This document shows, piece by piece, positions 18,012 to 58,100 of a stretch of DNA of 64,000 bases. Source of the DNA: Naegleria gruberi (Eukaryota); the NCBI GenBank assembly GCA_000004985.1, contig GG738857.1; one strand, given 5' to 3'. The notes under the pieces were generated by a model. That model was not told where the DNA came from, ran no database searches, and saw nothing but the letters and a program-made list of their open reading frames with translations. How positions within the stretch are numbered: the stretch's first letter is position 1; each line of letters begins with the position of its first letter. A program made the position numbers and the translations under genes.

Positions 18012-18216
18012 TCAATTTTGAGACATTCACAATAAAAATATTTGCAAACAAAAGAATTAGACTTCCGGAAAAACTTTATATTACATAATTATGGACTTAA
18101 TTTCTAAATTAATCAAATTAAATCAGTAAATTAATCAGCAGAATTAATATGCTTAATTATGATCACATACAAAAAAGTAAACGTAGCTCAGAGACTTTTT
18201 GTTATTTGTATTTCTT

Positions 18217-27640: not shown

Positions 27641-29146
27641 ATGATGGGAAATGTGATTTTGGAGTTGGATAGAAATATTTCATCGGAATTTCTAAAGGAT
27701 CAATTTTCAAGGACTTGCAAATTGAATTATTTAAAAACTATAATATTTCAACTTGTTGTGATTAGAGATAAGAAGTGCCTCCCTCTTGTTCAATTATTTA
27801 GTCATGATCGAGGATTTATTGAAAAGATGGTCGAATATCAGGCATTTGCTCTTGGCTATGCTTCAAAAGAAATTAAAAAAGACAAATCGATAGCAGTTAA
27901 GGCATTGAAAACAAGTGGACACTCAATATCTTGTGTCGATGAGTCGTTATATTCCGATCGAGAAATAGCTCTTATTGCACTATCAAGTCATTCCTATGCC
28001 ATTCGTTTCTTTATGGAACACTTTTCTAATGATAAGGAGATAATCATGAATGCAGTTTCGAAATGTGGTAACTTAATTCATTATGCTACATATTGTGATT
28101 TGGATATTATATTGGCTGCTGTGACAACGTACGAGCTTGCATTTGAGCTTGCCGACCCAAAATATTATTTTGATAGAGAAATAATGATGGTAGCGGTTAC
28201 AAGGAATGGAATAACTCTTAGATATGCAAGTGAAACATTACGAGAGGATAGAGAAATAGTTCTGAAAGCTGTGAAAAATGCTGGAGATGCTTTGAGATAT
28301 GCCTTAGTACAAGATAGAGAAATTGCCTTAGAGGCAGTAAAATCTTCTGGTACAGCGCTTCAGTTTGTTGACAAGAATTTCCTTAGCGACTCAGAAATAG
28401 TCATGATAGCTCTTCATTCAAATGGTTCTTCTTTACAGTATCTACCTAAAGAAATGAGAGAAATAAGGGAATATGTTGAAGCTGCAATTTCTGAAAATCC
28501 TCTGTCAATTCAATATGCTAGTGAGGTGTATAAATCAGATAGAGAGCTAGTTAAAAAGGCTATATCCGAAAAGGGAAATATTTTAGGATATGTTGACAAG
28601 AAATTTCTGAAAGATGAGCAAATTGTTTTTTTGGCTGCTTTAAACAATCCTATAACCTTCAAATACGCAGATGAAAGTTTACGGTCTAATCTGAATTTCA
28701 TATTGGACATTATAAGGACTTCAAAGAAAACAAATGTATTAATGAGCTATTTGCCGGCCCCTGGTAGCATTAACATTTATAATGATAGAGAGTTCTATTC
28801 AAAGATTCCTATCGATACACATTTTATTAAGGAGAAAATTAGACTTTGTGGATTCAAGGCTACATTTGAAGAGTTTAGTTACAGTAAGGAAATAATTACA
28901 GAGATGGTCAAAGATTACATGACACTTGCTTTTATTAATGAAGGACTTCAACAAGATAGAGAAATGCTTCGAACTGCTCTTAATCTTAATGGTGAGCTGA
29001 TTAGTGAAATGCCTTTCATTATTGACAACTTGGATATTGAACTGATTCAAGTATCATTAATTTCCCTTCTTTCTGGCAGCGATGATAAAGAAAAGGAAAT
29101 TATCCATCAAACTCTACAATTAATCCAACATTCACAACAACTTTAA
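27641..29146 (+). CDS. DUF4116-type repeat protein
   Basis: ATG at 27641. At least eight copies of an approximately 37-aa repeat occur, for example DREIVLKAVKNAGDALRYALVQDREIALEAVKSSGTALQFV. These match the DUF4116 repeat pattern (REIxLxAVxxNGxALxYA). Confidence 0.6.
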   Translation: MMGNVILELDRNISSEFLKDQFSRTCKLNYLKTIIFQLVVIRDKKCLPLVQLFSHDRGFIEKMVEYQAFALGYASKEIKKDKSIAVKALKTSGHSISCVDESLYSDREIALIALSSHSYAIRFFMEHFSNDKEIIMNAVSKCGNLIHYATYCDLDIILAAVTTYELAFELADPKYYFDREIMMVAVTRNGITLRYASETLREDREIVLKAVKNAGDALRYALVQDREIALEAVKSSGTALQFVDKNFLSDSEIVMIALHSNGSSLQYLPKEMREIREYVEAAISENPLSIQYASEVYKSDRELVKKAISEKGNILGYVDKKFLKDEQIVFLAALNNPITFKYADESLRSNLNFILDIIRTSKKTNVLMSYLPAPGSINIYNDREFYSKIPIDTHFIKEKIRLCGFKATFEEFSYSKEIITEMVKDYMTLAFINEGLQQDREMLRTALNLNGELISEMPFIIDNLDIELIQVSLISLLSGSDDKEKEIIHQTLQLIQHSQQL

Positions 29147-36524: not shown

Positions 36525-38045
36525 ATGATTTCGTCCACTTCTACTACACCAGACCAAATTTCTGGGACCACGGTCCCGGTCTTGAGCAAGACAGAAGTCT
36601 TTGAAGAAGCAACCAATTTTGTAACATTACTTTATACAGAGTTGAAGAAGAAACCAGAAGAAATTGATGAAAGATTGCAAATAATCAAGGCAGAGATTGA
36701 TAGGACTGGAACTTATGTTCATACCAGTGAAGAATTAACCTATGGCTGCAAGGTTGCTTGGAGAAATTCAGTGAGTTGGTAAGTTAAAAGTTTCGAATAA
36801 TGATAGTAACAAGAATTAAAGTATTGGAAAGGTTCACTGGCAAGTATTAGCCGTCCATGACAAGAGACATTGCAAAACAGAGGAAGAAATAGCTCAAGCA
36901 CTAAAGGAACATGCCAAATTTGCCTTCAATGATGGTAATGTGAGATCTAGTGTTACCCTCTTTCGTCAAGTTTCCAATCCAGATGGAAGTGATGAAATTC
37001 GTATTCACAATCCACAAATCATTCGTTATGCAGGTTATAAAAACAATGATGGAAGTGTTTTAGGTGATCCAGATCATGTTGCCTTGACTGAACATGCACT
37101 TTCTCTTGGTTGGAGGAAAGATCAACCAAAATCAAGATTTGACATTCTTCCACTCCTGATTCAAATTGGAGTTCAAGGAAAGACTAAATATTTCGATTTG
37201 GAACCTGAATACACAACTGAGGTTCATCTCGAACATCCAAAATATCCACAAACAAGTGACATGGCTTTACGTTGGCATGGATTGCCAGCTATTACCAATA
37301 TGAGATTCGAATTGGGAGGTGTTTTTTATACTGCAGCTGCATTCAATGGATGGTAAGTTTCTAAGAATTAATTGTTTGAATGAAAACAAAATATTCGAAT
37401 CAAAGGTACATGACAACTGAAATTACAAGAAACTTTTTGGATGATTTTAGATATAATCTCTTAGATGAATTTGGAAGAGTTATTGGTGTGCGGCCTGATT
37501 CAGATGCCGAATCAAAAAAGAATCCATTCTGGAAAGATATTGCCTCTGCCGAATTCAATGTCATGGTTCAACATTCATTCGATAAACAAAATGTCAAGAT
37601 GGTTGATCATCACACTGCAGGTAAACAATTTGTAAAGCATATGCAAAATGAGGAAAAGAAAGGAAGAGAATGTCCTGCACGTTACAGTTGGATTGTTCCA
37701 CCAAGTGCTGCTCACACAAATCCAGTTTTTCACACAAGGATGAAGGAAATTTGGTTGAAACCAACCATTTCTTATCAACCTGAGATTTTTGATGGAAGTT
37801 TTAGAAATGTTATGGCAAGAGGAGAGGTTTTACCTTCAGATCCTGATTGGAATGTTAAGGAAAGTGTTCCTTCCACACCAACTCAAAGGAGCAAGGCAAC
37901 CTCAAGTCAAAAATCAACGACAGCCAAATCATCCACAAAACAAGTAAGAAGTAATTCTAGTGATAGAGTTCTGGTTAAGATTTTGGCAATTCTTGTGGTC
38001 TTGTTAGCAATCTTATTGGCGTACAATTCTTCACAACACCAATAA
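36525..38045 (+). CDS. Nitric-oxide synthase oxygenase-domain protein (bacterial NOSoxy-like) with a C-terminal transmembrane anchor. Three exons: 36525-36778, 36822-37352 and 37406-38045.
   Basis: Exon 1 reads ...[24 protein letters not shown] plus tg. Intron 36779-36821 follows (GTAAGT to ttaaag). The split codon tg|t gives the heme-thiolate Cys in SCIGKVHW. Exon 2 carries IRYAGYKNNDGSVLGDP and WHGLPAITNMRFELGGVFYTAAAFNG plus tg. Intron 37353-37405 follows; tg|g gives W, and the sequence continues YMTTEITRNFLDDFRYN...DHHTAGKQFVKHMQNEE...WIVPPSAAHTNPVFH. There is no reductase (FMN/FAD/NADPH) domain. The protein ends in VLVKILAILVVLLAILLAY, a tail-anchor-like TM helix. Confidence 0.75.
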
Positions 38046-38145
38046 ATTTTAAGCAAATGCTTTTGAACATTTCAACTATTAATGTTTTCTAAATTTGTAA
38101 TATTGATTATGAACATACAATCAAATAAGCTTTACTATCAAGAAA

Positions 38146-41100
38146 TTATCTCTTTGTTAACTTTTTTGGTGGATCAATACTCTTATCAGATTCCTTTCTC
38201 TTTCTGTTGGCAGTATTAGTCGATGGAGATGATGAAGAACTTGCAGCCCTGTTTTGATTGGTATGTTTTGGAGCTGTTGAAGAGCTTGAACTTGCTTGTC
38301 CACTTTTAACAGATTGAACATTCTTTTCAATATTAGAAATTGATGAACTTGTTGCTTTCTTTCTATTTGATGTAGGATTTGATGTAGGGGTGTTTTCAAT
38401 AATTTCTTTTACCTTCTTTTCTTTTTTCACTGGTAACTTATTCAACTCTAACTTTACAATAGGTGATGAGGATGAAGAACTTGATGCTTGTTGTTTCTTA
38501 TTTCCCTTAACTTGTGGTGATTTTTGAGTAGGAGATTTAACCTTCTTATCTGTCAATTTTTTATGTGGAAATTGTCTATTTGCATTCTTTCTTAAACCTC
38601 CACTATATTTGAAAGCATAGATTTGGAATCCACCAATACCATATAATAACATTTGTCTGATAAAGTATTCATCTGAGGAATTGTTTCCTTCCTTGAATGA
38701 TTCATGATCTTTCTTAACAACATCCTTTGATGAAATACCATCGAATAGAACCATATCTGAGACTGGATGAATTCCAATCATATTAGGACCATAGAATGTA
38801 CTGATATTACCTCTTGCAGATGAAACAAAATGAGTTGTTTTTTGTAATTTGTCAACTTCATTACTAAGGAATTTTGATTGAGCAGTTCTAACATTCCACA
38901 ATGAGACATGACCTACATGATTTCTCTTATCAAACTTTTCATTATATAGCTTCTTATACTTTGAAAGAATTTGTTTACCTTCCTTTGTTAGATGTGCCTT
39001 GGTCTCCTCAAGAATAGTCCACAATTCTCTTGGATCTTCAATGCACTTTTTTCTGAATTCTTCAAAGGTTTTAAACATTCTCAATCGATCACTATCACCT
39101 ATTTTACCACAAGTATAATGTGATCTTATCAATGGATTTTCTTCCGTGACATAGGTTAGAAATTCCTTAATTACTTCTTCTTTTTGTTGATAATCATAAC
39201 TTGAATGTAATTCAAAGTAAATGATGGCCTCTGCAAATATGAGATATCTTGCCAATGCGTTATTGTGTCGAACAAAAATAGGTTTCTTATACTCTTCAGC
39301 ATGAATGAAATTATCTTCCATGACATGATAAATTTCCAATTCGAAATGTTCTGCCAATAACATACAAAGTTTCTTCTTCTTTCCAATATTGATAAATATT
39401 TCAGTATCAATACTGACAAATACATAGTTAGGTGCCTTTTCTACCTCATTCATGGCTTCATTTAGGAATGAACGAGCCTTTTCCAAAAATGCATTTTCAA
39501 CCATGATGAAAATTAAATAATCTTGACTTCCATTTTTGGAATGTTTAATACAACAATCATGAACATGTCTCTCTAAAAAGTTTGGAGATGTTTCTTCAAA
39601 ATATTCTGGAAGAGTTGTAATGAAAATTGGAGCAATTCGTTGTCGACTATGACTCTTATTACCACCCATAGTTCCAATTAAGGCATCAGTGGAGAGCAAG
39701 GATTTAAATTTTGCCAGTTTAGTTTCCTTCAATTCCTTTTCATAGGAAACAAGAACTTGTTTTTCATTTCTATCAATTTCCATGAGGACCAGTTGACCTT
39801 TTTGATATAATTTCTTTTGTTCTTCAGATAAACCTGCATCAATACTTTCCTTTTCAACTCTTGTCAAACTAATGCTACTTTTTGGTAATTTTTGAACATT
39901 ACCAAATTTTTCACTGGGTGAAAGAACTTTTGCTCTTTTAAGCTCTCTAATGGTGTTATATTCCTTATCAGGAATAATCATACAACCCTTTCCTGATTTA
40001 CATGCAGGTGATGGATAACGATTTGAAAGACCTAAATGTTCGGCTTTAAGAGGTTTAGTTTTTTCCTTTTTCAAAAGCACTCTCATATCATCAATTAACT
40101 TGAATTTCTCAATTGCTAATTTGAGATATTCTTCAGATTCTAATTGACCTCTAATATGTAAGAGTTCATCTGCACAATTACTCAAATACTCTTTCATTGA
40201 ATTCAAAATTGAGTAAAATATATCAAAACTTCCATAATCTTCAATGCGTTCATTTGGTGAAACAAAATTCATAGAGTGGAAAATATCATCAACAATTTCA
40301 ACTAATTCTCCCTTAAAAGTATTCATTTCTTCTTCCTTAGTTGCTAAATCCTTCTTTTGTTTTGCCATTAATGAATCAATCTTCTTTTCAATAAATTCAA
40401 ACATTTGATTCTTGTACATGTCAATTCTATATCTAATTTTTCTGTTTCTTTCATAGAAATAAGTTGTAAACTCAATCCAATTATCATATTCAATTAATTG
40501 ACTTTGAATATTACAATCTAAGGTTTCGTGAGGTGAAAATGTTTCAATGGGTTCTTCACTCTGTCTCTGTTCAATATTTCTACATTTCTTTTCAGTTCTT
40601 TTAATACTTTTCATCAATGTCTTGACACATGTTGATAATTCAAAGTAAGTTTCCTTGAGAATGGTTTTAATTGCTGCTCTTGCATCTACTGCTGCCTTGA
40701 TTGGAAATTGAGATTTGTAAAGAGTTGCAATTTGTAAAGCATATCTCAATCCCTGAAAAACTAAAAAATTAGTTTCAATAGTCTTTCTCATTTCAATTAT
40801 TTCACCAAGTTGTTTGAAGAATATATTCCATCTCTCCTTATCTGTTTTATGTGGGATTGTTAAATTAGTGGCTCGATTAGCTACTGCAACAACAAAATCA
40901 TACTTTCCAAAGAAATCAACATCCTTCCTCTTGGACTCTTCAATCTTTCCAAGTTGTGAAATATTTTCATTCAAGATCAACATCGAAGAAATCACTCAAA
41001 TTACTCTTAAAATCTGTTAAATATTTTTCATGAAGTTCTGTCAATTCTTTGTATGGATTCTTCTCTTTAGCTATTGTCTGACATAGTGATGTCAAAACAA

Positions 41101-42136
41101 TGGTTGGTGGATTATCAGTATTCTTTTCAAATACCTTGTAGGTCCATAAATCAGGGACACAATCAACACCAACAATTTGTCTTACACTTTCTAAACCCTT
41201 AAGAATGACATTACAATTAGAAATAACCTCTTCAATTAACATGGAAAGAATTTCACTATTATTCTGTTCACCATAACCAGGAATGTCCCATATTGCCACT
41301 TTACCATATCTACTTTTCAAGATTTCACTATTATAACAGAGAACAAATTTGTCAACCATCAAGAGTCTTTCCTTTGATTGAAGTCTTTCCTTCTCAAAGA
41401 CTGACATTACAGCTTTGTCATCTGAAACTTGAAATTCAATTTGTAAATCTCCTTCTTGTTCAAATTTTAAAAGTTCAGCATAACATGTCTTGAGTTCACT
41501 TTGATCGAGACCACAATTAGAAACTGGATTGGATTCTGCTTTTCTAGGTAGAATACATTCTTCTTGTTCATCATTGTAATCATCATCATCTGAACTTTCT
41601 TCATTAGAACCCAATGATGGACTCTCATCAGCAGCAACATCTTGATAATCATCAAGCAATTGATCTTCATTACGATCACTAGAGAGTAAATCAGCAATTA
41701 TCGTATTATCTTCATTCTTCTTTGAGAGACGAATAATTCTATCTACGTACTTCTTAGGTGAGCAATAAACCTTTAATAGACGTAATTTATCAGAATATTT
41801 AATCTCAGTACAAAACAAAGTTTCACCTGAACCAAATTTAGAAGATGCCTTCATTGGATAATCATCTTTTCCAGATAGTATCATATTCAATGTGCTTGTT
41901 TTACCAAATCCAGGTTCTGATAATAAACCTATTGAAATTTCAGGTCCTTTTTCAATCTTTTCATAAATCTTTTCATAATTGTCAAAGGCTTCTTTCACAA
42001 ACTTGTTAGACTGATTCTGCTTTGAAGAAGTTCCAAAATCCTTGACAATTTTATCAAGAAATTGTCTCTTGATTCTCTCTTCTTTAACAACATTGACGTG
42101 GTTAATCTTTGAGTCAGCAGGTGTTTGAGGAATCAT
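38146..42136 (-). CDS. Large P-loop (TRAFAC-class-like) GTPase with an acidic insert and a roughly 570-aa conserved C-terminal domain of unknown function. This is paralogue A.
   Basis: ATG at 42136. The N-terminal ORF (42136-40970) has the Walker A motif LLSEPGFGKTSTLNMILSG and the G3-like WDIPGYGEQN. The long C-terminal ORF (to 38146) is collinear with paralogue B (FFGKYDFVV..., SHSRQRIAPIFIT, NFLERHVHDCC, NIGKKKKLCML, HVGHVSLWN, GIGGFQIYAF). The two ORFs are out of frame by +1 at about 40960-41000. This implies either a 37-nt intron (gttgat...ggaaag) or a frameshift. Confidence 0.6.
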
Positions 42137-42347
42137 TTTTTTCTTTTTTCAATATTAACAAGCGTTGAGTTTTATGTGAGGTGATGGCAAAGGTTAAGAA
42201 GTGTTGGAGAAGTGAGAAATGACGTGTGGTGCATTTATCATGGTAAATTTGAAATTCAAAATTTAGAAGAGAAATTTGAATCCATGAAGCTTAACAAACA
42301 CGACGAGGTGTAACATTTTAAAAACTCGAATGACATGATGTAAAAAA
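42137..42347. promoter_or_regulatory. A 211-bp divergent intergenic region between the start codons of paralogues A and B, likely a shared bidirectional promoter
   Basis: The ATG of the minus-strand gene is at 42136 and that of the plus-strand gene at 42348. The spacer is AT-rich. No specific motif was identified. Confidence 0.3.
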
Positions 42348-45300
42348 ATGTCAACATCGCTATTGCCAAGTGCCTCCTTTGACCTATTCGATTCTGAATT
42401 ACATAATGTAATTGATGAAGAAAGGGATCGGAAACATATTTTGCAGCAATGTCTACATAAATTAAATGAAAATAATTATGTGACGAAAGCTTTTGCAAAA
42501 TATTCGAATATATTCGAAACTATTGACAAAGGACCTGAAGTTTCTGTTTGTTTATTATCAGAACCTGGATTTGGTAAAACAAGCACATTGAATATGATAC
42601 TATCTGGAAATGACAATTCTCCAATGAAGGCATCCGATAGATTAGGTTCAGGTGAAACTTTAGTCTGTACACAAATTAAATATTCGAAAGACATTCGAGT
42701 TACAAAAGTTTATTGTACAGCTGAAAAGTATGAAGAAAGAATTATGAAATTAATGAAAACAAAAGATTCAGAAGATGAACAAACATCACCAACGCCACTC
42801 ACAGATGGTTTAAGTTTAGTTTCGTCTTCAAGTTTCGAATTTCAAGACGATGATGATGATGAAGAAACTGATTGCGAAGATTCAGCATCAGATGAAGCAA
42901 ATTCACTTTTACTTCCAGAGAAATTAAATGTAGAAACTTCAAGTGTAAGATTAAGTGAAGATCATTTCGTATTTCTTAATGGAAAGGCAGATAGAAATGA
43001 ATTAGAAGAAACATTTACGTTTCAATCTGTTCATGATATTCATAACTATTTTGAAAAGGAAAGAAAAAGAGATGAATGCAATAGAGATGACATTTTAATG
43101 GTTGACAAATATATTTTATACTATCCGTGTGAATTACTTAAAAGTGAATATGGAGAAGTGATATTATGGGATATTCCTGGTTATGGTGAACAAAATTATG
43201 GTGATATTCAAGCTATGCTTGTTGAAGAAGTTGTTTCTAATTGTAATGTCATCTTAATGGCATTGACAGGTAACAGAAATATCCTATCTTTAAATTGTTC
43301 ATCTAATTTATGGAAATATAAGGCATTTGAAAAAAGAAAAGATAATCCACCTACTATTGTCTTAACTTCAAGATGTCCAATAGAAAATTCAAATCATTAT
43401 TCAGAATTAATCAAATGTCATAATTCCTATATTAGGGAATTTAAAGAAAATTTAAGTGATTTTTTCAATGTTGATTTTGAATCTAATCCAAAACCTAAAA
43501 AGAAAGAATTGAAAGAAGAAAATGAAGACGAACCTAAAATAATTGACTTTTTTGGAAAGTATGATTTTGTTGTAACAGTTTCAAATTATGCAACAAATAT
43601 TACAATACCACATTTAACGGATAAAAATAATTGGACTATATTTAAGGATGAATTTTCAAAAATAATTGAAATGAGAAAGAGAATTGAAACTGATTATTCA
43701 ATTTTTAAGGGATTGAGATATGCTTTACAAATTGTAACACTTTACAGAACTCAATTTCCTGTCAATTTTCAAAAATTATGTAAAACAGAGACAGATAAAA
43801 TTGCAGATGAAACTTTAAAAACTTTACTACAATATATTGAAACTTTGGAATCAAATATTCAAAGAGCAATTTCAAGAGGTGAAAAATTAGAGAAGAAAAT
43901 TGAAAATTCTTTCAGTTTTGGAAATGAAAATTCATTGACTGATAAAATTCAGAGAAGATTATTCGAATCACATACAAGAGATGTCATGATTGCTTACTAT
44001 AGTGAAAGAATGAAAAAAATCAGTACAAGAATTGAAATGTTCAGAATTCAATTACATTTTCTATTGGAAACTAAAATTTTAGCAGCACAAAGTCATGAAA
44101 AATGTTTTGATTTTACAAATTTTAAAAACATGTTGTCAGATCATATTGATGAGATATTCGATTCTTTAAAAGCAATTATTCCAAACGAAATGACAGATGA
44201 TTCTAGAATGAAACTTGATTCGTATCATGAATCTTTTAAATCAATGAAAGGAATTTCAGAACAATCTAAAATTTTATTGAAAACTTTAACTAAATCAGGA
44301 TTCAAAAAAATAACCAAAACAGATGATAAGGAACTTTCATTATATGAAAAAGCAGAGAGAGTGAAAAGAGATTTTAAAAAGAAGAACTTCAAGTCCTATG
44401 AAGATGAAATCAAAATTCCAAGTCTTTCTAATGCCTATATGAATCCTTCTCGTAGAACAGGTAATATTCTAATTCCACTAAAAGAATACGAAACTATTAA
44501 GGAATTGAAAGAAAATTTCATTTTACCATCAGTAGGTGAGAAATTTGAAGAAAATATTGGAAAAATAGAAAAACAATCAAAAAGTGAATTGGAATTGGTA
44601 TATCGTTCAGATGAAATTAGTGGAAATATCATTTCCTTACAAATCGACAAATCACAGAGAAGAATTACAGTTTCGTATAATGAAAGTTTGCAAAAATCAA
44701 TTCAAAGTTTTAAAAAACTATTGACCACTGATTCACTCATTGGAACTAAGGGTGGAAACAAGAGTCATAGCCGACAACGAATTGCTCCAATTTTCATTAC
44801 TGCAGTTCCAGAATATTTCAATGATTTCACTCCAAACTTTTTAGAGAGACATGTTCATGATTGTTGTGTTAAATCAGATGTCAATCATATCATTTTCATT
44901 ATGATTGAGTCAATTTATTTGGAAAAAGCTCAATCATTCCTTAATCAGAATTTAAGTTTGTTGAATAATGAATATTCAAAGAAAAAATTGAATTATGTAT
45001 TTATCAGTATTGATACTGAACTTCCTGTAAATATTGGAAAGAAGAAGAAACTTTGCATGTTGGTGGCAGAACATTTCGAATTGGAAATTTATCATGTCAT
45101 GGAAGATAACATACTTCACGTTGAGGAATATATCAAACCAATCTTTTTCAGACATAACAATGCATTGGCAAGATATCTCATCTATGCAGAGGCCATTCTC
45201 TATTTTGAACTTTATTCAAGCATGGATTACACTCAGAAAAAAGGAATTATTAAGGAATTGCATGATTTTTTCTTGGATGAACCTTTAACGAGACGATACT

Positions 45301-45953
45301 ATTTGGAAAACAAGATTTCAGATTCAGATCCACTCAGGAAATTTAACACAGATGAGAAGATTAGAGAGAAGTATATTCACGATCCGAGACAATTATTATT
45401 TGCTTTTAATTATTTGAAACCTAAACTAAATGAAGATGGATTACAAATCGTTCACCAATATGAGGTGAAATTTAATGAATTCTTTAATAGGAGAGATCAT
45501 GTAGGTCATATTTCATTGTGGAATACTCAAAGTTCTCAATCAAAATCACTGAGCTCATTTATTGACAGCACTCAAAAAACAACTCATTTTGTTTCACCTA
45601 TGAGAGGAAATATCAGTACATTTTATGGACCGAATACGAAAGGAATTCATCCAGTTTCGGATAATGTTCTATTTGATGGGATGGCAGAAACATCACCATC
45701 TCCATTGACTCCTACATCAAAAAGAAGAACTAAGTTCGATATGTTGGAATCTTTTTTATGTGGAAATAGTTTCTCTGATGATTACTTTATTAGGCAAATG
45801 TTATTGCATGGAATTGGTGGATTTCAAATTTATGCTTTTAGATATCTTGCTGGAAACAGAGCTAGAATTAAGGATCGCAAAAAGAATTCGAAACGAAAGG
45901 ATATGGAATCGATCAAAAATGTTTCCCAACAGAAAAAGAAGAAGAATAAATGA
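42348..45953 (+). CDS. Large P-loop (TRAFAC-class-like) GTPase with an acidic insert and a roughly 570-aa conserved C-terminal domain of unknown function. This is paralogue B.
   Basis: Continuous 1201-aa ORF with ATG at 42348. The Walker A motif is LLSEPGFGKTSTLNMILSG, with WDIPGYGEQN about 200 aa downstream across an Asp/Glu-rich insert. The C-terminal domain shares long identical blocks with paralogue A. Off-frame ORFs 45034..45288 and 39171..39425 are almost identical, which indicates patches of high nucleotide identity. Confidence 0.7.
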   Translation: MSTSLLPSASFDLFDSELHNVIDEERDRKHILQQCLHKLNENNYVTKAFAKYSNIFETIDKGPEVSVCLLSEPGFGKTSTLNMILSGNDNSPMKASDRLGSGETLVCTQIKYSKDIRVTKVYCTAEKYEERIMKLMKTKDSEDEQTSPTPLTDGLSLVSSSSFEFQDDDDDEETDCEDSASDEANSLLLPEKLNVETSSVRLSEDHFVFLNGKADRNELEETFTFQSVHDIHNYFEKERKRDECNRDDILMVDKYILYYPCELLKSEYGEVILWDIPGYGEQNYGDIQAMLVEEVVSNCNVILMALTGNRNILSLNCSSNLWKYKAFEKRKDNPPTIVLTSRCPIENSNHYSELIKCHNSYIREFKENLSDFFNVDFESNPKPKKKELKEENEDEPKIIDFFGKYDFVVTVSNYATNITIPHLTDKNNWTIFKDEFSKIIEMRKRIETDYSIFKGLRYALQIVTLYRTQFPVNFQKLCKTETDKIADETLKTLLQYIETLESNIQRAISRGEKLEKKIENSFSFGNENSLTDKIQRRLFESHTRDVMIAYYSERMKKISTRIEMFRIQLHFLLETKILAAQSHEKCFDFTNFKNMLSDHIDEIFDSLKAIIPNEMTDDSRMKLDSYHESFKSMKGISEQSKILLKTLTKSGFKKITKTDDKELSLYEKAERVKRDFKKKNFKSYEDEIKIPSLSNAYMNPSRRTGNILIPLKEYETIKELKENFILPSVGEKFEENIGKIEKQSKSELELVYRSDEISGNIISLQIDKSQRRITVSYNESLQKSIQSFKKLLTTDSLIGTKGGNKSHSRQRIAPIFITAVPEYFNDFTPNFLERHVHDCCVKSDVNHIIFIMIESIYLEKAQSFLNQNLSLLNNEYSKKKLNYVFISIDTELPVNIGKKKKLCMLVAEHFELEIYHVMEDNILHVEEYIKPIFFRHNNALARYLIYAEAILYFELYSSMDYTQKKGIIKELHDFFLDEPLTRRYYLENKISDSDPLRKFNTDEKIREKYIHDPRQLLFAFNYLKPKLNEDGLQIVHQYEVKFNEFFNRRDHVGHISLWNTQSSQSKSLSSFIDSTQKTTHFVSPMRGNISTFYGPNTKGIHPVSDNVLFDGMAETSPSPLTPTSKRRTKFDMLESFLCGNSFSDDYFIRQMLLHGIGGFQIYAFRYLAGNRARIKDRKKNSKRKDMESIKNVSQQKKKKNK

Positions 45954-45978
45954 ACAACTTGGTAAACAAAAATGCAAC

Positions 45979-46051
45979 CGCCCCACGTGGGGCTCGAACC
46001 CACGACCGTTGGATTAAAAGTCCAACGCTCTACCGACTGAGCTAGCGGGGC
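45979..46051 (-). tRNA. tRNA-Lys: tRNA-Lys (anticodon UUU)
   Basis: The minus-strand sequence GCCCCGCTAGCTCAGTCGGTAGAGCGTTGGACTTTTAATCCAACGGTCGTGGGTTCGAGCCCCACGTGGGGCG folds as a cloverleaf. The 7-bp acceptor stem has one G-U pair. The D-loop is AGCTCAGTCGGTAGAGC. The anticodon loop cTTTTaa gives anticodon TTT. The T-arm is GGTTCGAGCCC. CCA is not encoded. Confidence 0.85.
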
Positions 46052-46346
46052 TGCTAATGTAAAGTAATTGGTAATGGTTCTTGAGGCTATTGACGAAACT
46101 GTTTATTATGTACCTTTGTAAGTGATGATTACTCTGAAAATACAACTATTTTTGAAAATGTTAATTTGTTGGGATGGGCAGTATAAATAAGATTAGCCTT
46201 AACTGTTCAGATTTATAGTGACCGAGAAGCAACTTGGTAGTGTCAGAAGACCAACAAGCCTAAGCGAGGAATCATTTTTGCGAATGATTGGACTAACTAA
46301 CCTAAATATTATTTCGTTTCTAGAAAATTTTCTTGTTTAATTGAAA

Positions 46347-48488
46347 TTACAAGTCTTCATCACTCTCATCAAGTGTATATTCTTGGATGCCTTGAGGTTT
46401 GTTTTGACTTGGTTCTGTTTGTTGCTCTCTTTCTAAAAAGTGTGGTTCATCTTCTAATTCTTCATCTTCCCCCCCATTGATTGGATCATGATGAGAAATA
46501 ATTGATCTATCTCCATACAAAGCCAAATATTCCTTTCTGTGTCTTCCAAGGAAACAAAAAACAAGCATTAATAAACCAATAATTGTTACCAAGGAAATAA
46601 CACCATATGTAATCATGATTGGATAAAGTCCACGATCTGAAACTAAGGCATTTTCATAGTATTCGCAAATACTTCCACTATATCTATCTTCACATTTACA
46701 CTATTATTATGAATGAATAAATATGAGTTTCAAATCAACTTACTTCATTGTAATCTACGCATGCACCTTTACCTCCACAAACCTTGCCAGTTGTTGAAAT
46801 TGAAGGAACTCCAAAGCAATATGTATGTTCGCATTCATTTCCAAAATATTCAGCCTTACATTTACAAGTATTTTCTGACAAACATTCTCCCCTCTTTACA
46901 CCTCCACAAACACTTGATGAATTAGCTGGTAATCCATAACATTTGTGAACTATTCCGTGATTATGATAAATTGGTGAAATTAATTTTAGCCACTTACTCT
47001 TTAGGTCACTGCAATACTTTCCTTCAAATTTGGCAGTGCATTTCTCACATTTTTCTCCATCAAAATTACCTTTACATTTGCAAATATTCTCTGCAACACA
47101 CTCTCCATTACCACTACACACATCAGAGTCTGTGTTTTTAAAACCATGGCAACTGACAGGAGGCTTGAGTGCAAATTTCAGTAACATGGGATTACTGCTG
47201 TCGGCATGTACCAAAATTGCAAACTCAAAATCTTTATACTTCAATGGTAAGAGCATATAATCCCAATTGCCTTTATCGTCATTATCAGTGTCCTCAATTA
47301 GGGTAAAAACTTTTTCTTTTCCATCCATTCTTTTGACAGAACAGATACCGCCGAGAGTTGTACAAGTTTTGAATACCAAATTACCATTATTGAAAGTTAA
47401 AATATTTTGAGCATCTCCTCCAGTGTAGATAGTATCAACTTCATTAAAAGTATCTCTAACAACTGCAAATGAGATAATATTTCCATCCTTGATATAAAAT
47501 CCTAATCCATCATTAATAAACAAGCTCATTACTGCGTCATTGATTTTTTGGAGCTTGTCATTCAAATGTATGTAGAGAGACTTTTTGTTTCCAATAATAT
47601 TTTTTCCCATAACAGTAGTTTGGTAAGATGGTTTGCCATCGAATAAATTTGAGTACTTTCCATCATCTGAGGTGACAATAGTTTTGAGGCCATCAAAATA
47701 AAACGTAAGGGATGTTCCTTGAACCATTGAATCGGATTGATAAGTAAGGTTTTTTACCCAAGTAATATTCAATGCTAATGGATCCAATTTTCCAATAGAT
47801 AAGACCTCTCCATTTTGGTAAAGGACGTTGACATCTCCTTCATAATCTTTGGAAAATGTAAGAGGGAAATATACTTTGTCTCCTTTCCTTTCAAAATTTT
47901 CTTTAACATTGTAACTTTTGTCGACACTTAACAATCCTTCACTGTTTGCTCCAATGAATAAATTTTTTGTAAGAATTGATGAAAGGGTGTCTACTTCCTT
48001 GATTGATTTAATTGCATTTGCGTTAAAGTTAGCTTTGTATAATCCTTGCTTCCTGTCAGTACCGATGGCACCATCAAAAAGAAGATCATTTTCATTCAAG
48101 AAAATGAGTTGATTCATTTCAGATATTTCTGTGTCACTGATAATATTAGCAGAGTCGTCATTTTTCAAATAAACGAGTCTAACACCCTTATATCCATTAG
48201 TATTCTTTAACAACCATGATTAGTGAATATATTCATTTCAAAACATACTTGATTTGGAGCGTAGTGTGCTTTAAAGTAAACAGTGCTTCCATCGGGTTTA
48301 ACAATATAGTTTTTAAAATCATCTTGATCATTGTCTTCTTGTAAAACTGTAAAATTATCAGTATCTTTTCTTTCTTGTCTGTAAACGTTGTCTGTTGGTG
48401 TTGAAATTGAATAGACGAAACTAATTCCGGCCATCAAATTGACAACCAAAAAAACGGCAATCAACAAACTTGCCAGATTTTTAAACAT
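46347..48488 (-). CDS. Type-I membrane glycoprotein with tandem EGF-like Cys-rich repeats. Three exons: 48488-48249, 48204-46744 and 46700-46347.
   Basis: ATG at 48488 gives the signal peptide MFKNLASLLIAVFLVVNLMAG. Intron 48248-48205 (44 nt, GTATGT to ttaaag) and intron 46743-46701 (43 nt, GTAAGT to aataatag) are both phase 0. The ectodomain of about 330 aa is of unknown fold. Three to four EGF/tenascin-like repeats follow (CSGNGECVAENICKCKGNFDGEKC, CGGVKRGECLSENTCKCKAEYFGNEC, CGGKGACVDYNE-CKCEDRYSGSIC). A TM helix IMITYGVISLVTIIGLLMLVFCFL and an acidic cytoplasmic tail complete the protein. Confidence 0.65.
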
Positions 48489-53856: not shown

Positions 53857-54840
53857 ATGAAAAGTAAAAGGCAACAAGAATATTCTCTGAAGGGAATTCG
53901 AATAATTGTAGTTTTGATGATGGTGATGATAGGTTTCTTCGGAATAATATCTTGTAAGGATGATTTTCGGGAAACAAGTAATGAATTGGCTTTGGAGTTC
54001 TTTCCTCTTGATAAATTGATTATGAAGAGTATTGTATTGGATGAATACAATAATGAACTTGTTTATAATATGGTCAATTTGACGAATAATGATTCCATGA
54101 CAAATGGAACAGATAGTAACAATTCGAGTGGGATTGAAGATAATCTTTTTTGGGTTATTGTCAAGTCAATTTATTTCAATGCATTTGGAAGTGGAGTGTT
54201 TGCTGGTTTGGTGACAATTGCTATCACTGTCATTATTGAAAAGTTTGGACCTCAGGTTGGAGGTGTTATTGGTACGTTGTAAACCAATTAGTTCAATTTT
54301 TTTAAATCAACTTTTAAATCAATAATAGGCACCTTACCAAGTACAATTATTCCAGCAACAATTGGGTTCTCAATTGAGGCAGATAAGAATTACGGAACAG
54401 ATCCAGAATTGAGGAAACACATGCTCATCCAGCAATTCTTTGTGATACCTTTGGCTGTTTTCTGCAATTGTCTCTTTTTGGTTATTTGGAAATATTCGCC
54501 ACACATTATTGATAGGATTAAACTTTTAATTGATAGGAAGAGAGGGAAGAGCAAGCAAATCAATATTGTTGCTTCTCATGAGGCAAGCGTTCAAGAAATG
54601 AATGAGATTCCATTTGAAGAAAACCATGATATACACGATGCAGATGAGGGACATCATCGTCCTTCTGTTGAGCTCCTCACTGCTGCACAAGGCACTGATG
54701 AACATAGTACCACTGAGCTCCAAACAGAAAGCCAACCAAGCAGAAAGTACCTTGTTGGAAAAATGTTTATTGTAATGACATTGTCATTGGTGGTATGGTT
54801 TACATTGGCTATTGTGATTGTGACAGTTACTAAGGTCGAA
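53857..54840 (+). CDS. Polytopic membrane protein (two exons: 53857-54271 and 54329 to at least 54840), truncated at the 3' end by an assembly gap
   Basis: ATG at 53857. Intron 54272-54328 (57 nt, GTACGT to ataatag) joins ...GPQVGGVIG to GTLPSTIIPATIGFSIEADK..., so ORF-track entries 53857..54282 and 54409.. belong to the same gene. The protein has multiple hydrophobic helices and runs into the N gap at 54842. Confidence 0.45.
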
Positions 54841-54841
54841 A

Positions 54842-55128
54842 NNNNNNNNNNNNNNNNNNNNNNNNNNNNNNNNNNNNNNNNNNNNNNNNNNNNNNNNNNN
54901 NNNNNNNNNNNNNNNNNNNNNNNNNNNNNNNNNNNNNNNNNNNNNNNNNNNNNNNNNNNNNNNNNNNNNNNNNNNNNNNNNNNNNNNNNNNNNNNNNNNN
55001 NNNNNNNNNNNNNNNNNNNNNNNNNNNNNNNNNNNNNNNNNNNNNNNNNNNNNNNNNNNNNNNNNNNNNNNNNNNNNNNNNNNNNNNNNNNNNNNNNNNN
55101 NNNNNNNNNNNNNNNNNNNNNNNNNNNN
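54842..55128. other. Assembly gap (287 N)
   Basis: Run of n characters. It separates the membrane-protein gene from the PPR gene. The ORF-track entry 54409..58980 (1523 aa with X residues) is an artefact of reading through this gap. Confidence 0.95.
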
Positions 55129-58100
55129 AACATGATCAAACAGTCAAACATTTCCAGCGTAACACTTGATGGCATACTAATCAAGTTTTATACAAAGTGT
55201 GGACACGAGGAAATGGCAATAGAGCTCTATAGAGATATCATTTCACAAAATAAGCCAATAGATGTCATAACTTTTACTTGTGTCATTCAAGCATTTGCTC
55301 AACAAAAACAAATAGAACAAGCAATAGGCGCTTTGGAGGAAATGAAAAAGAGAAATATTAACCCAAATAGTGTAACATTTACTATATTAATTAGGTTGTG
55401 TGCAGAAAATCAATATTACAAAGAAGGTGTGAAATTACATGAAATGATCAAAATATCGAAAATTTCGAGTTTAGAATTGAGTAACTCATTAATGAATTTT
55501 TACACAAAATGTGGTAAACCTGATGTTGCCCTTCAACTATTTGAACAACTCAAAGTTGGCAAAATGAAATTGAATGTAGCTTCTTGGTCATGTGCAATTC
55601 AGGCCCTTGGAGAGAAAAAAGACATCAGAGGAGCAATTGGTTTATTGGAAGAAATGCAAGCCAATAATATCAAAGCAGATTCTATTCTATTTACCATATT
55701 ATTATCTCTATGTGCAGACAATCAACTTTATGAAGAAGGAGTGAAATTACATGAAATTATCAACGTATTGAAAATTTCTAGTTTAGGATTGTCGAACACA
55801 TTAATGAATTTTTATAACAAATGTGATCAAACCAGTATATCACTTGAAATATTTGAAGAACTTAAAAAAGAAAACAAGACAAATGTTGTATCATGGAATT
55901 GTGCAATTCAAGCTCTTGCTAAACAGAAACATTTCAAAAAAGCTATTGATTTATTGGAAGAAATGGAATCAAACAAAGTCAAACCAGACACTATTACATT
56001 CACAATACTTATTAGTTTCTGCGCGGAAAATCAGCTCTATGAGGAAGGTGTAAAATTGCATGAGTTCATACAAAGGTTAAATGTATCGAGTTTGGAATTG
56101 AGCAATACATTGATGACCTTTTACACCAAATGTCACAAACCTGAAGTTTCACTCGCGATGTTTGAACATCTTACAAAAGAAAACAAAGCTGATAACGTAT
56201 CTTGGAATTGTGTAATTCAAGCACTTATCCAAAAAGAAGATATAACAAAGGTAACCGAGCTACTGGATAGTATGGCAAAAACCAATATTATGGTTGATGT
56301 TTCCATGTTAGTAGCTGTAGTGAATAAGTGCACAGAACGAAAATTGTTAAAGGAGGGAGTTTTGTTTCACAAGCAGATGAGAATACACAAAATTGAAAAT
56401 GTAGAATTGAGTAATTCCTTAATGAATTTTTACACTAAGTCTGGCCAACCTAATTTATCACTTGAAATATTTGAAGAACTTAAAAAAGAAAACAAGACGA
56501 ATGTTATATCATGGAATTGTGCAATCCAAGCTCTTGGACAAAAAAAAGACATCAACAAAGCTATTGATTTGTTAAAGGATATGCAAATCAATTCTGTTAA
56601 ACCAGACTTCGTAACATTTACTACATTAGTTAGTTTATGCGCAAAGAATCAGCTCTATAGCGAAGGAGTAACATTACATACAATTATCAAAAGCCTTGGT
56701 ATGGAAAATATAGAATTGTCAAACACATTAATGAATTTTTACACAAAATGTGGTAAACCTGATGTTGCCCTTCAACTATTTGAACAGCTCAAAATTGGCA
56801 AAATGAAATTGAATGTAGCTTCTTGGTCATGTGCAATTCAGGCCCTTGGAGAGAAAAAAGATATCAGAGGAGCAATTGGTTTATTGGAGGAAATGCAAGC
56901 CAATAATATCAAAGCAGATTCTATTTTATTTACCATATTATTATCTCTATGTGCAGACAATCAACTTTATGAAGAAGGAGTGAAATTACATGAAATAATC
57001 AAAGTATTGAAAATTTCTAGTTTGGAATTGTCACACACATTAATGAATTTTTACACAAAATGTGGCCACACTAACGTTGCGCTTCAGCTATTTGAGGACT
57101 TGAAAAAAGAAAATAATACCAATGCTATTTCTTGGAACAGTGCTATTCAAGCCTTAGTGCTAGCTAAAGACACCCAGAAAGCAATAGACCTTCTTGCAGA
57201 AATGCAATTGCTCAATGTTAAACCAGATACTATTACGTTCACTATATTAATTGGTCTGTGTGCAGAAAATCAATATTACAAAGAAGGAGTGAAATTACAT
57301 GAAATGATCAAAGTATTGAACATTTCAAGTTTAGAATTGAGTAATTCATTAATGAATTTTTACACAAAATGTGGTCAACCTGATGTTGCACTTCAACTAT
57401 TTGAACAGCTTAAAATTGACAAGATGAAAATGAATGTAGTTTCTTGGTCATGTGCAATTCAGGCCCTTGGAGAGAAAAAAGACATCAGAGGAGCAATTGG
57501 TTTATTGGAAGAAATGCAAGCCAATAATATCAAAGCAGATACTATTTTATTTACTATTTTACTAACTTTATGTGCAGACAATCAACTTTATGAAGAAGGA
57601 GTGAAATTACATGAAATAATCAAAGTATTGAAAATTTCAAGTTTGGAATTGTCAAATACATTAATGAATTTTTACACAAAATGTGGACAAACCAGTATAT
57701 CACTTGAAATATTTGAAGAACTTAAAAAAGAAAACAAGACAAATGTTGTATCATGGAATAGTGCAATCCAAGCTCTGCGATCTAGGAAAGATATTACAAG
57801 AGCCTTTGAATTGCTAGAGGAAATGAAAAAACTCAACATTGAACCAGATGAAATAACATATGTTAGCCTTCTTACTCTATGTGCAGACAGTGTTGCCATT
57901 AAGCAGGGAGAGGAGGTGGTGCAGCAGTTCAAAACAAAACATATAGCAAAAAGTGTCTTTTGGATTGGTGCAACTATAAGCTTTCATGCAAAAGTTGGAA
58001 GATTGGAAAGAGCAGAATCAGTATTCAATGAATATTTATCTAACAACCCACCATTTGATCCAATCTTGACAAGTGTTATGATAGATGCTTATGCCAAACA

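What the first reader, a model, noticed from the sequence alone, without database searches (positions are those of the whole stretch)
38146..45953. Divergent pair of large GTPase paralogues with an uncharacterised ~570-aa C-terminal domain
Two genes of about 1200-1330 aa lie head to head, separated by a 211-bp spacer. Each has a TRAFAC-like P-loop (GxxxxGKTS) and a DxPG switch (WDIPGYGE), separated by a roughly 130-aa Asp/Glu-rich insert. That spacing recalls immunity-related, septin or AIG-type GTPases. The C-terminal domain is strongly conserved between the copies. Its blocks include FFGKYDFVV, GLRYALQI, SHSRQRIAPIFIT, NFLERHVHDCC, YVFxSIDTE, NIGKKKKLCML, AEHFELEIYHVMEDN, RHNNALARYLI, HVGHxSLWN, ARGNISTFYGPN, GIHPVSD and IRQMLLxGIGGFQIYAF. 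I cannot assign it to any domain family I know. Some stretches are so similar at the nucleotide level that identical off-frame ORFs appear in both copies (39171..39425 and 45034..45288), which implies recent duplication or gene conversion. A divergent tandem pair of large inducible-looking GTPases is the kind of arrangement seen for innate-immunity GTPase families.
Basis: partly seen in the sequence, partly recalled or inferred. Interest (0 to 1): 0.75.

Follow-up and report, generated by a model that had tools for sequence, protein, structure and literature searches.

The report
Dynamin-like GTPase fused to TAGT glycosyltransferase
Two head-to-head Naegleria gruberi genes encode large proteins that join a dynamin-type GTPase to a glycosyltransferase of the kind that puts sugars on modified DNA bases, a combination I found described nowhere and whose function has not been tested.

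Summary
The observation mostly holds. Two paralogues lie head to head across a 211-bp spacer in Naegleria gruberi nuclear DNA. Gene B (42348..45953, +) is an intact 1201-aa ORF. Gene A (38146..42136, -) codes for about 1330 aa but is broken by one frame change near 40967-40995.

The N-terminal domain is a dynamin-superfamily GTPase. The Willaertia homologue passes Pfam Dynamin_N, and it matches the profile of A, B and their closest relative at E 1.7e-19. The guanine-specificity (G4) motif is missing.

The family has at least five N. gruberi paralogues, plus members in Willaertia, Hydra, Paraphysoderma, Brachionus and Paulinella.

The copies are old (49% amino-acid identity) and the off-frame ORFs are similar, not identical. 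Exact nucleotide runs of up to 61 nt exceed all 2000 codon-usage simulations, which points to short conversion tracts.

The likeliest function is GTP-gated, probably nuclear, sugar transfer. The substrate (DNA hydroxymethyl-pyrimidine or protein) is inferred only. The immune reading is untested.

The parts
42348..45953 (+). Gene B: intact 1201-aa ORF. Order of parts: dynamin-like GTPase, conserved and poorly conserved middle region, TAGT-like GT-A domain, basic tail.
   Evidence: The full product is absent from the 15-billion-protein collection. Only a 207-aa fragment model (P0003) exists.
38146..42136 (-). Gene A: paralogue of about 1330 aa with the same architecture. It is split into ORFs 40967..42136 and 38146..40995.
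   Evidence: It is annotated only inside the chimeric model XP_002679602 (P0001).
40967..40995 (-). Frame-change junction in gene A. A TGA at 40967..40969 ends the N-terminal frame and the downstream frame overlaps it.
   Evidence: Protein conservation with gene B continues on both sides. This is a single-base indel, a sequencing error, or, less likely, a 37-nt GT..AG intron without a consensus 5' splice site.
42137..42347 (.). 211-bp spacer between the two divergent start codons; presumed shared bidirectional promoter.
   Evidence: The promoter function is inferred, not tested.
42510..43487 (+). Gene B GTPase domain (about residues 55-380). G1 GFGKTS 42567..42584; switch I GSGET 42645..42659; G3 DIPG 43170..43181; G4-equivalent LTSRC 43362..43376, which is not NKxD.
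42750..43052 (+). Acidic, low-complexity insert in the gene B GTPase between switch I and G3 (27% Asp/Glu). It is longer than in other family members.
40970..42136 (-). Gene A N-terminal part with the GTPase domain. G1 41894..41911; switch I 41819..41833; G3 41276..41287; LTSLC 41081..41095.
43530..44714 (+). Gene B middle region (about residues 395-789). Contains conserved blocks FFGKYDFVV (43548..43574) and GLRYALQI (43710..43733), then a poorly conserved stretch. I presume it is a helical stalk.
   Evidence: amino-acid identity falls to 15-35% at B 463-683.
44715..45872 (+). Gene B TAGT-like GT-A glycosyltransferase domain with a helical insert. Motifs: GKKKK 45036..45050; variant DxD 'EDN' 45102..45110; EEY 45123..45131; HVGH 45498..45509; TTHF 45579..45590; GIHPVSD 45642..45662.
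38578..39750 (-). Gene A TAGT-like GT-A glycosyltransferase domain. Motifs: GKKKK 39370..39384; VMEDN 39310..39324; GIHPVSD 38755..38775.
45873..45950 (+). Gene B basic C-terminal tail (DRKKNSKRKD...QQKKKKNK), which looks like a nuclear localisation signal.
   Evidence: Similar basic clusters sit at the termini of relatives. Nuclear targeting is inferred.
38149..38577 (-). Gene A Ser/Lys-rich C-terminal tail ending in a bipartite-looking basic motif (RKRKESDKSIDPPKKLTKR).
   Evidence: Inferred nuclear localisation signal.

Best explanation
Genes A and B are old, lineage-specific paralogues. They belong to an uncharacterised eukaryotic family whose members share one architecture, listed here from N- to C-terminus:
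- a dynamin-superfamily P-loop GTPase;
- a long middle region, presumed helical;
- a GT-A-fold glycosyltransferase of the TAGT clade, the clade of the kinetoplastid base-J glucosyltransferase, phage 5hmC/5hmU DNA glycosyltransferases and GREB1;
- a basic tail that looks like a nuclear localisation signal.

Proposed mechanism:
- Nucleotide-dependent dimerisation or oligomerisation of the GTPase and stalk positions or switches on the C-terminal transferase.
- The transferase moves a sugar from a nucleotide-sugar onto a nuclear substrate.
- I think the likeliest acceptor is hydroxymethyl-pyrimidine in DNA, made by Naegleria's own TET-like dioxygenases. A protein acceptor, as reported for GREB1, is the main alternative.

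Shown: the architecture, the folds and the family relationships. Inferred: the GTP gating, the nuclear location and the acceptor. The confidence of 0.6 is for the statement as a whole; for the architecture alone I would put it at about 0.85, and for the DNA acceptor at about 0.3.
For: C-terminal domain:
- The AlphaFold model of B 775-1180 with a 15-sequence alignment has pLDDT 79.4 and pTM 0.81.
- In the Foldseek search of viral models, 12 hits reach E<=1e-3 at probability 1.0 over about 330-400 aligned columns. Several of the best are phage proteins named 'TET-Associated Glycosyltransferase domain-containing protein'.
- Pfam TAGT (PF20691) is the top or only family for 7 of 15 members in one scan and 9 of 10 further relatives in another. 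The matches always cover about model positions 23-124. The best whole-protein score is 27.0 bits against a cut-off of 27.5, and the best domain-only E-value is 1.1e-6.

GTPase:
- G1, the switch-I Thr and DxxG are invariant across the family.
- Pfam Dynamin_N scores 43.4 bits against a cut-off of 27 for Willaertia P0004, and 3 of 10 members hit it, best E 1.6e-12.
- The N-terminal profile of A, B and P0002 hits P0004 at E 1.7e-19 with Z set to 1e6.
- The PDB profile search returns TRAFAC GTPases almost exclusively (the signal-recognition-particle receptor FtsY, E 0.13, is the only other hit).

The family and its shared architecture:
- The exhaustive HMMER search gave 30 hits at E<=1e-3. The long ones are 1100-1290 aa with the domain at the C-terminus.

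Nuclear and DNA-related hints:
- Basic clusters resembling nuclear localisation signals sit at the termini of many members.
- N. gruberi has active TET-like dioxygenases (PMC4678852).
- Phage GT-A enzymes of this clade and JGT act on DNA (bioRxiv 10.1101/2023.12.21.572611).
Against: - The window proteins themselves give no Pfam hit at E<=1. Their membership rests on transitive homology and on one predicted structure.
- The published active-site pattern of the clade is R...DDD...EDY/F. In A and B it reads GKKKK...EDN...EEY, so metal or donor binding may be altered or lost.
- No NKxD/TKxD motif is present (LTSRC/LTSLC), so guanine specificity is unproven.
- No TET/JBP gene lies in the window or in seven related loci.
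- GREB1, the only animal TAGT protein studied, is reported to glycosylate a protein (PMC7968844).
- Gene A carries a frame change.
- The middle region was not modelled.
- I know of no evidence for glycosylated bases in Naegleria DNA.
Confidence: 0.6

Rival explanations
1. The architecture is the same, but the transferase glycosylates proteins on Ser/Thr, as reported for GREB1, rather than DNA. The GTPase and stalk act as a regulated scaffold.
For: - GREB1's TAGT-type domain is reported to O-GlcNAcylate ER-alpha (PMC7968844).
- No TET/JBP gene is linked in any locus examined.
- The variant motifs could reflect a different acceptor or donor.
Against: - The best structural matches are phage TAGT proteins, and phage GT-A enzymes of this clade and JGT act on DNA.
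- The GREB1-specific modules (zinc ribbon, circularly permuted SF2 helicase) are absent, with no Pfam hits for them.
- Basic tails suggest a nuclear location, which fits either substrate.
Confidence: 0.25
2. The pair are inducible innate-immunity GTPases, analogous to IRG, GBP or Mx. They assemble on invaders, and the glycosyltransferase is the effector, for example marking foreign DNA or surfaces.
For: - The N-terminal domain is a dynamin-superfamily GTPase.
- The family is expanded by paralogy: at least five copies in N. gruberi and a tandem pair in Paraphysoderma.
- It has a patchy distribution across eukaryotes.
- It has fast-evolving acidic inserts and a poorly conserved middle region.
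Against: - There are no expression or infection data.
- PADLOC and PHROGs gave nothing meaningful.
- The IIGP match is only 12.7 bits against a cut-off of 24.
- The neighbouring genes are ordinary housekeeping genes.
- The copies are old and conserved, not rapidly diversifying throughout.
Confidence: 0.15
3. The glycosyltransferase domains of A and B are pseudo-enzymes used only for binding, and/or gene A is a pseudogene.
For: - The active-site pattern is altered: the conserved Arg is Lys, and DDD is EDN.
- Gene A has a frame change with an in-frame TGA.
- Relatives P0008 and P0009 have lost the GRKRK motif.
Against: - The central Asp is invariant in all 15 aligned members.
- VMEDN, HVGH, TTHF and GIHPVSD are identical in A and B despite 49% overall identity, and VMEDN is also kept in P0002, which is 34% identical. 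That indicates purifying selection on the site.
- Both halves of gene A stay open for 389 and 949 codons, so any inactivation is very recent or is a sequencing error.
Confidence: 0.2

Closest known systems
TAGT clade of GT-A glycosyltransferases (Pfam PF20691): kinetoplastid base-J glucosyltransferase JGT and phage 5hmC/5hmU DNA glycosyltransferases
   Same: - GT-A fold.
- The best viral structural matches are TAGT-annotated phage proteins.
- Relatives hit PF20691 over the strand-2 to DxD region.
- A basic motif, an xDD motif and an E-Y motif occur in the same order as the published R...DDD...EDY/F pattern.
   Different: - The window proteins score below the Pfam threshold.
- A helical insert of about 100 residues splits the domain.
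- The motifs read K / EDN / EEY in A and B.
- The domain is fused to a GTPase of about 380 aa and a middle region of about 400 aa, whereas the matched phage TAGT models are only 229-310 residues.
- No TET/JBP gene is a neighbour.
GREB1 / GREB1L
   Same: Both are large eukaryotic proteins in which a C-terminal TAGT-type transferase follows an NTPase-type module. Both have a possible nuclear role (PMC7968844, PMC6163654).
   Different: GREB1 has a zinc ribbon and an inactive circularly permuted SF2 helicase. This family has a dynamin-type GTPase with intact G1-G3 motifs. No GREB1 Pfam domain was detected.
Dynamin superfamily (dynamin, Mx, mitofusin, bacterial dynamin-like proteins)
   Same: - The G1, switch-I (GSGxT) and DxPG motifs are present.
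- The Willaertia homologue passes Pfam Dynamin_N.
- It is a large protein with a long region after the G domain.
   Different: - There is no TKxD/NKxD motif.
- A large acidic insert sits in the G domain.
- I detected no PH domain, GED or membrane segment.
- The C-terminus is an enzyme domain. I know of no described dynamin-family protein fused to a glycosyltransferase; that is from my own knowledge, not an exhaustive check.
IRG/IIGP immunity-related GTPases
   Same: The motif strings are similar (GxGKSS...N..; WDLPG).

The profile hits to IRG structures are weak, E 0.006-0.2, and cover the P-loop region only.
   Different: Pfam IIGP scores 12.7 bits against a cut-off of 24. Dynamin_N is the family that passes its threshold in a homologue. 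The size and domain content also differ.

Membership tests
Dynamin superfamily GTPase (Pfam Dynamin_N PF00350) | Walker A / G1 motif GxxxxGK[ST] | tested here: met
   The motif is S-E-P-G-F-G-K-T-S in both A and B, with the first Gly replaced by Ser. Pro, Lys and the GK core are invariant or nearly invariant in 10 family members.
Dynamin superfamily GTPase (Pfam Dynamin_N PF00350) | Switch I Thr (G2) and DxxG (G3) | tested here: met
   G100, G102, T104 and D275, G278 are invariant across the family. The strings are GSGET and DIPG in A and B.
Dynamin superfamily GTPase (Pfam Dynamin_N PF00350) | G4 guanine-specificity motif [NT]KxD | tested here: not met
   The equivalent strand reads LTSRC in B and LTSLC in A. 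Relatives keep only an Asn (LANNK, LVNDK and so on) and no conserved Asp.
Dynamin superfamily GTPase (Pfam Dynamin_N PF00350) | Score above the Pfam gathering threshold | tested here: inconclusive
   - A and B give no hit at E<=1.
- The homologue P0004 scores 43.4 bits against a cut-off of 27.
- 3 of 10 members hit the family, best E 1.6e-12.
- The profile of A, B and P0002 matches P0004 at E 1.7e-19.
Dynamin superfamily GTPase (Pfam Dynamin_N PF00350) | Helical stalk or bundle after the G domain, and assembly-stimulated GTP hydrolysis | not tested
Hydrolysis needs biochemistry.
TAGT / GT-A glycosyltransferase (Pfam PF20691) | GT-A (nucleotide-diphospho-sugar transferase) fold | tested here: met
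TAGT / GT-A glycosyltransferase (Pfam PF20691) | Closer to TAGT than to other GT-A families | tested here: met
   Foldseek against BFVD: the top hits, E 1e-5 to 7e-4 at probability 1.0, include several phage proteins annotated as TAGT.

TAGT is the only Pfam family that recurs among relatives.
TAGT / GT-A glycosyltransferase (Pfam PF20691) | Score above the Pfam gathering threshold (27.5 bits) | tested here: not met
   A and B give no hit. The best relative as a whole protein scores 27.0 bits (P0014) and the others 13.7-25.8 bits. The best domain-only E-value is 1.1e-6.
TAGT / GT-A glycosyltransferase (Pfam PF20691) | Active-site pattern R...DDD...EDY/F | tested here: inconclusive
   Most relatives have GRKRK...DDD...(F/Y)xEY. 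A and B have GKKKK...EDN...EEY. Only the central Asp is invariant. I matched the motifs by eye and did not confirm the match by superposition.
TAGT / GT-A glycosyltransferase (Pfam PF20691) | Association with a TET/JBP dioxygenase | tested here: not met
   No TET/JBP domain was found in the 20 neighbouring window ORFs scanned or in loci L001-L007. N. gruberi does encode TET-like enzymes elsewhere (PMC4678852). Gene linkage is not expected in eukaryotes.
TAGT / GT-A glycosyltransferase (Pfam PF20691) | Sugar transfer to hydroxymethyl-pyrimidine in DNA | not testable with these tools
   This needs enzyme assays and nucleoside mass spectrometry.
GREB1-like proteins | N-terminal zinc ribbon and circularly permuted SF2 helicase before the TAGT domain | tested here: not met
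   No GREB1-family Pfam domain was found in A, B or eight relatives. The N-terminus is a GTPase.
IRG/IIGP GTPases (Pfam PF05049) | Score above the gathering threshold across the G domain | tested here: not met
   Gene B scores 12.7 bits against a cut-off of 24, over residues 265-302 only.

The most novel reading that the evidence does not exclude
The family are GTP-gated nuclear DNA glycosyltransferases. They would add a sugar to 5hmC or 5hmU made by Naegleria's TET-like enzymes, writing a base-J-like hypermodified base outside the Euglenozoa. That would make them the first dynamin-superfamily proteins whose assembly controls a DNA-modifying enzyme. The same pathway might exist in Hydra, a rotifer and a blastoclad fungus.
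Probability: 0.2. Interest if true: 0.85.

Novelty: new variant of a known kind. Interest (0 to 1): 0.58.

Why it matters
- Naegleria has well-studied TET-like dioxygenases, but nothing is known about what happens to their products in the cell. A TAGT-type transferase family with at least five copies in the same genome is an obvious candidate next step. It makes the question 'does Naegleria glycosylate its DNA?' directly testable.
- The fusion to a dynamin-type GTPase would be a new way to regulate a glycosyltransferase, and a new job for a dynamin-like protein.
- The analysis corrects the public annotation. Gene B is missing as a full-length protein. Gene A is buried in a chimeric model (XP_002679602) that treats gene B as an intron.
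- If the acceptor turns out to be protein, the family would be a second eukaryotic lineage of GREB1-type cytoplasmic or nuclear glycosyltransferases.

Tried and rejected
- Pfam, NCBIfam, PADLOC and PHROGs on A and B directly: nothing significant. The only weak hints were TIGR00231 small_GTP (E 6.7e-4) and a P-loop match.
- PDB sequence searches with the two-sequence profiles: nothing. With the 15-sequence C-terminal profile, only spurious helical-bundle hits appeared.
- AlphaFold with only A and B in the alignment: pLDDT 38, unusable.
- Word-index homologue search with the C-terminal domain: it returned nothing, not even the known self-hit P0001, so it is a tool limitation and not evidence of absence. 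The profile version returned only 4 proteins.
- The afdb50 library was unavailable, so GREB1, JGT and the AlphaFold models of the Naegleria paralogues could not be compared.
- Iyer et al. 2013 (NAR 41:7635), which defined TAGT, is not held. I could not check whether this architecture was already noted there. Literature searches for TAGT with dynamin or GTPase found nothing relevant.
- The contigs of N. gruberi paralogues P0008, P0009 and P0048 are not on record.
- Rejected: assembly duplicate (49% identity); recent duplication; IRG membership.
- Rejected: the JGI 'intron' that removes about 150 residues of gene A. Those residues are conserved with gene B and with the family.
- Rejected: a 37-nt intron at the frame change. 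It would restore the frame, but it lacks a consensus 5' splice site and is very short.

Full report
**Where the window comes from**

The only database relative of gene B in the first search was a 1662-aa 'predicted protein [Naegleria gruberi]' (P0001 = XP_002679602 / NAEGRDRAFT_47587). Its sequence is a chimera of window sequences. It starts with the EGF-like ORF at 46735..48213 (-) and continues with gene A. It jumps over gene B as if it were an intron, and it also drops about 150 residues of gene A. So the window is N. gruberi nuclear DNA.

The neighbouring genes are ordinary:
- a nitric-oxide-synthase oxygenase domain, a cyclophilin and TCTP;
- a PPR-DYW protein, DOCK and RasGEF;
- RCC1, RGS and quinolinate phosphoribosyltransferase.

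**Checking the observation**

Gene B is one 1201-aa ORF at 42348..45953. Gene A is on the other strand, and the two ATGs are 211 bp apart.

Gene A is not a single ORF. The frame that starts at 42136 ends with a TGA at 40967..40969. The rest is read in an overlapping frame (38146..40995). Similarity to gene B runs on both sides of the junction. The cause is therefore one of three things:
- a one-base indel, that is, a very young pseudogene;
- a sequencing error;
- a 37-nt GT..AG intron, which is less likely because it has no consensus 5' splice site.

The two proteins are 49% identical over 1152 aligned residues. They are 45% identical over the N-terminal 387 aa and 47% over the C-terminal 810 aa. 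The last roughly 490 aa are 59% identical. The pair is not an assembly duplicate.

**Nucleotide similarity between the copies**

The two 'identical off-frame ORFs' are only similar. The best nucleotide blocks are 72-88% identical, so the duplication is old.

There is nevertheless an excess of synonymous identity. Third positions of identical codons match in 68.5% of cases, against 56.9% expected from codon usage. There are exact runs of 61 nt (over the P-loop), 46, 38, 29, 27 and 26 nt. In 2000 simulations that kept the protein alignment and each gene's codon usage, the longest run never exceeded 47 nt. None of them had six runs of at least 26 nt. Short gene-conversion tracts between the inverted copies, or constraint at the nucleotide level, are the likely cause.

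**Finding the family**

Pfam, NCBIfam, PADLOC, PHROGs and PDB sequence searches on A and B gave nothing significant.

An exhaustive HMMER search with the C-terminal profile of A and B found 30 proteins at E<=1e-3 among 1.84 billion representatives. Their sources are:
- three more N. gruberi paralogues (XP_002677248, XP_002673838, XP_002670230);
- Willaertia magna (KAL9645939);
- Hydra vulgaris LOC101240012;
- Paraphysoderma sedebokerense;
- Brachionus calyciflorus;
- Paulinella micropora;
- eukaryotic metagenome contigs.

The long members are 1100-1290 aa and carry the domain at the C-terminus. Several 'short' members are fragments of long genes cut by gene callers.

In a neighbour-joining tree of the domain, A and B are sisters. 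Next come a metagenomic protein (P0002, 34% identical to both) and then the Willaertia protein. The other three N. gruberi paralogues form a second clade. Paraphysoderma also has two copies side by side.

**The C-terminal domain**

The family alignment shows this order of conserved elements:
- strand-like motifs (APIFI., IIF.V.E, Y.F.V...);
- a GIGRKRK motif;
- a strand followed by DDD;
- F/Y-x-E-Y;
- a variable helical insert;
- K.IG...LWN, TH..S..R, GIHPVSD and GY..SD....Q.L..GV.GF.

Individual relatives give weak to borderline hits to Pfam TAGT (TET-associated glycosyltransferase, PF20691). TAGT is the top or only family for 7 of 15 members in one scan and for 9 of 10 further members in another. 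The hits always cover about model positions 23-124. The best whole-protein score is 27.0 bits against the cut-off of 27.5.

With the 15-sequence alignment, AlphaFold gave a usable model of B 775-1180 (pLDDT 79.4, pTM 0.81). The structure searches gave three results:
- Foldseek against PDB: only weak GT-A hits.
- Foldseek against predicted viral structures: 12 hits at E<=1e-3 and probability 1.0, aligned over about 330-400 columns. Several of them are phage proteins annotated as TAGT, and Ralstonia phage phiRSL1 contributes a glycosyltransferase (B2ZYD6) within that set and a TAGT-annotated protein (B2ZYD7) just outside it at E 0.011.

The 'unassignable' domain is therefore a divergent member of the TAGT clade of GT-A enzymes. 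That clade contains the kinetoplastid base-J glucosyltransferase, phage enzymes that glycosylate 5hmC or 5hmU in DNA (bioRxiv 10.1101/2023.12.21.572611) and GREB1 (PMC7968844).

The published active-site pattern of the clade is R...DDD...EDY/F. Most relatives keep GRKRK...DDD...xEY. A and B read GKKKK...EDN...EEY, and only the central Asp is invariant in the family. VMEDN, HVGH, TTHF and GIHPVSD are identical in A and B, and VMEDN is also kept in P0002. So the variant site is under selection, but its activity cannot be assumed.

**The N-terminal domain**

Across ten family members the following residues are invariant: P73, K77, G100, G102, T104, Y112, D275 and G278 (gene B numbering). They make up a P-loop, a GSGxT switch I and DxPG.

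- The Willaertia protein passes Pfam Dynamin_N (43.4 bits against a cut-off of 27).
- Three of ten members hit Dynamin_N (best E 1.6e-12) and five hit MMR_HSR1.
- A profile of the N-terminal regions of A, B and P0002 matches the Willaertia protein at E 1.7e-19, even with the database size set to one million.
- The family profile finds TRAFAC GTPases almost exclusively in PDB: Der/EngA, NUG1, IRGs, mitofusin-2 and FeoB, with FtsY (E 0.13) the only hit outside that class.
- The G4 motif is absent: LTSRC in B and LTSLC in A. Guanine specificity is therefore not established.
- A and B have an extra acidic insert of about 100 residues between switch I and G3.

**Other features**

The middle 400 residues contain two conserved blocks followed by a poorly conserved stretch. 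I presume they form a helical stalk but could not model them.

The C-terminal tails of A, B, P0002, the Willaertia protein, P0048 and the Paraphysoderma proteins are clusters of Lys/Arg. So are the N-termini of P0008, P0009 and the Hydra protein. These clusters look like nuclear localisation signals. This is an inference from sequence.

No TET/JBP gene lies in the window or in seven related loci. Linkage would not be expected in eukaryotes. N. gruberi does have active TET-like dioxygenases elsewhere (PMC4678852).

**Interpretation**

Shown:
- the paralogue pair;
- the three-part architecture;
- the dynamin-type G domain;
- the GT-A/TAGT-type transferase;
- the existence and spread of the family.

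Inferred:
- GTP-dependent assembly gates or targets the transferase;
- the proteins act in the nucleus;
- the acceptor is hydroxymethyl-pyrimidine in DNA.

A protein acceptor, as reported for GREB1, is the main rival. An immune role and loss of catalysis remain possible.

I found no description of a dynamin-TAGT fusion in the searchable literature. The paper that defined TAGT (Iyer et al. 2013) was not available to me, so prior mention cannot be excluded. I rate the finding as a new variant of known kinds, with moderate to good interest.

Noticed in passing
window 38146..48213 (-): The public N. gruberi model XP_002679602 / NAEGRDRAFT_47587 (P0001, 1662 aa) is a chimera. It joins the EGF-like gene at 46735..48213 to gene A, treats the whole of gene B as an intron, and splices out about 150 conserved residues of gene A. 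Gene B's full product is absent from the 15-billion-protein collection. Its only model is a 207-aa fragment (P0003) that starts in the off-frame ORF (MHWQDISSMQR...).
   Followed up: yes
window 36940..38045 (+): A nitric-oxide-synthase oxygenase domain (Pfam NO_synthase, E 2e-48 and 5e-42) is split over two adjacent ORFs covering model positions 105-237 and 235-360. This implies a short intron or a frame change near 37356..37380, and a missing upstream part.
   Followed up: no
window 54409..58980 (+): A 1523-aa PPR protein with E, E+ and DYW deaminase domains. This is the plant-type RNA-editing factor architecture, present here in an amoeboflagellate.
   Followed up: no
window 38001..46000: The two genes have lower G+C (29-31%) than the rest of the window (about 32-37%, apart from one 28% stretch at 54001..56000). 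This may only reflect their Lys/Asn/Glu/Ile-rich composition.
   Followed up: no
L001 2095..11526 (Paraphysoderma sedebokerense JAHLJZ010000108.1): Two full-length family members lie in tandem on one strand and are about 41-61% identical block by block. The first is annotated as two separate genes of 515 and 691 aa.
   Followed up: partly
P0010/P0045 (Hydra vulgaris LOC101240012), P0028: The Hydra member has a degenerate P-loop (PNSRKS) but a canonical DDD transferase motif. A metagenomic member (P0028) carries a B-box zinc finger inside the helical insert of the transferase domain.
   Followed up: no
L002 734..4480 and 16525..20352 (Willaertia magna JBEGDK010000136.1): The Willaertia homologue has a RecQ-type helicase two genes downstream. 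About 5.5 kb upstream lies a 1248-aa protein with no Pfam hit that is unrelated to this family. The proximity is probably coincidental.
   Followed up: partly
window 27641..29146 (+): A 501-aa protein made of eight DUF4116 repeats (E 9e-89).
   Followed up: no
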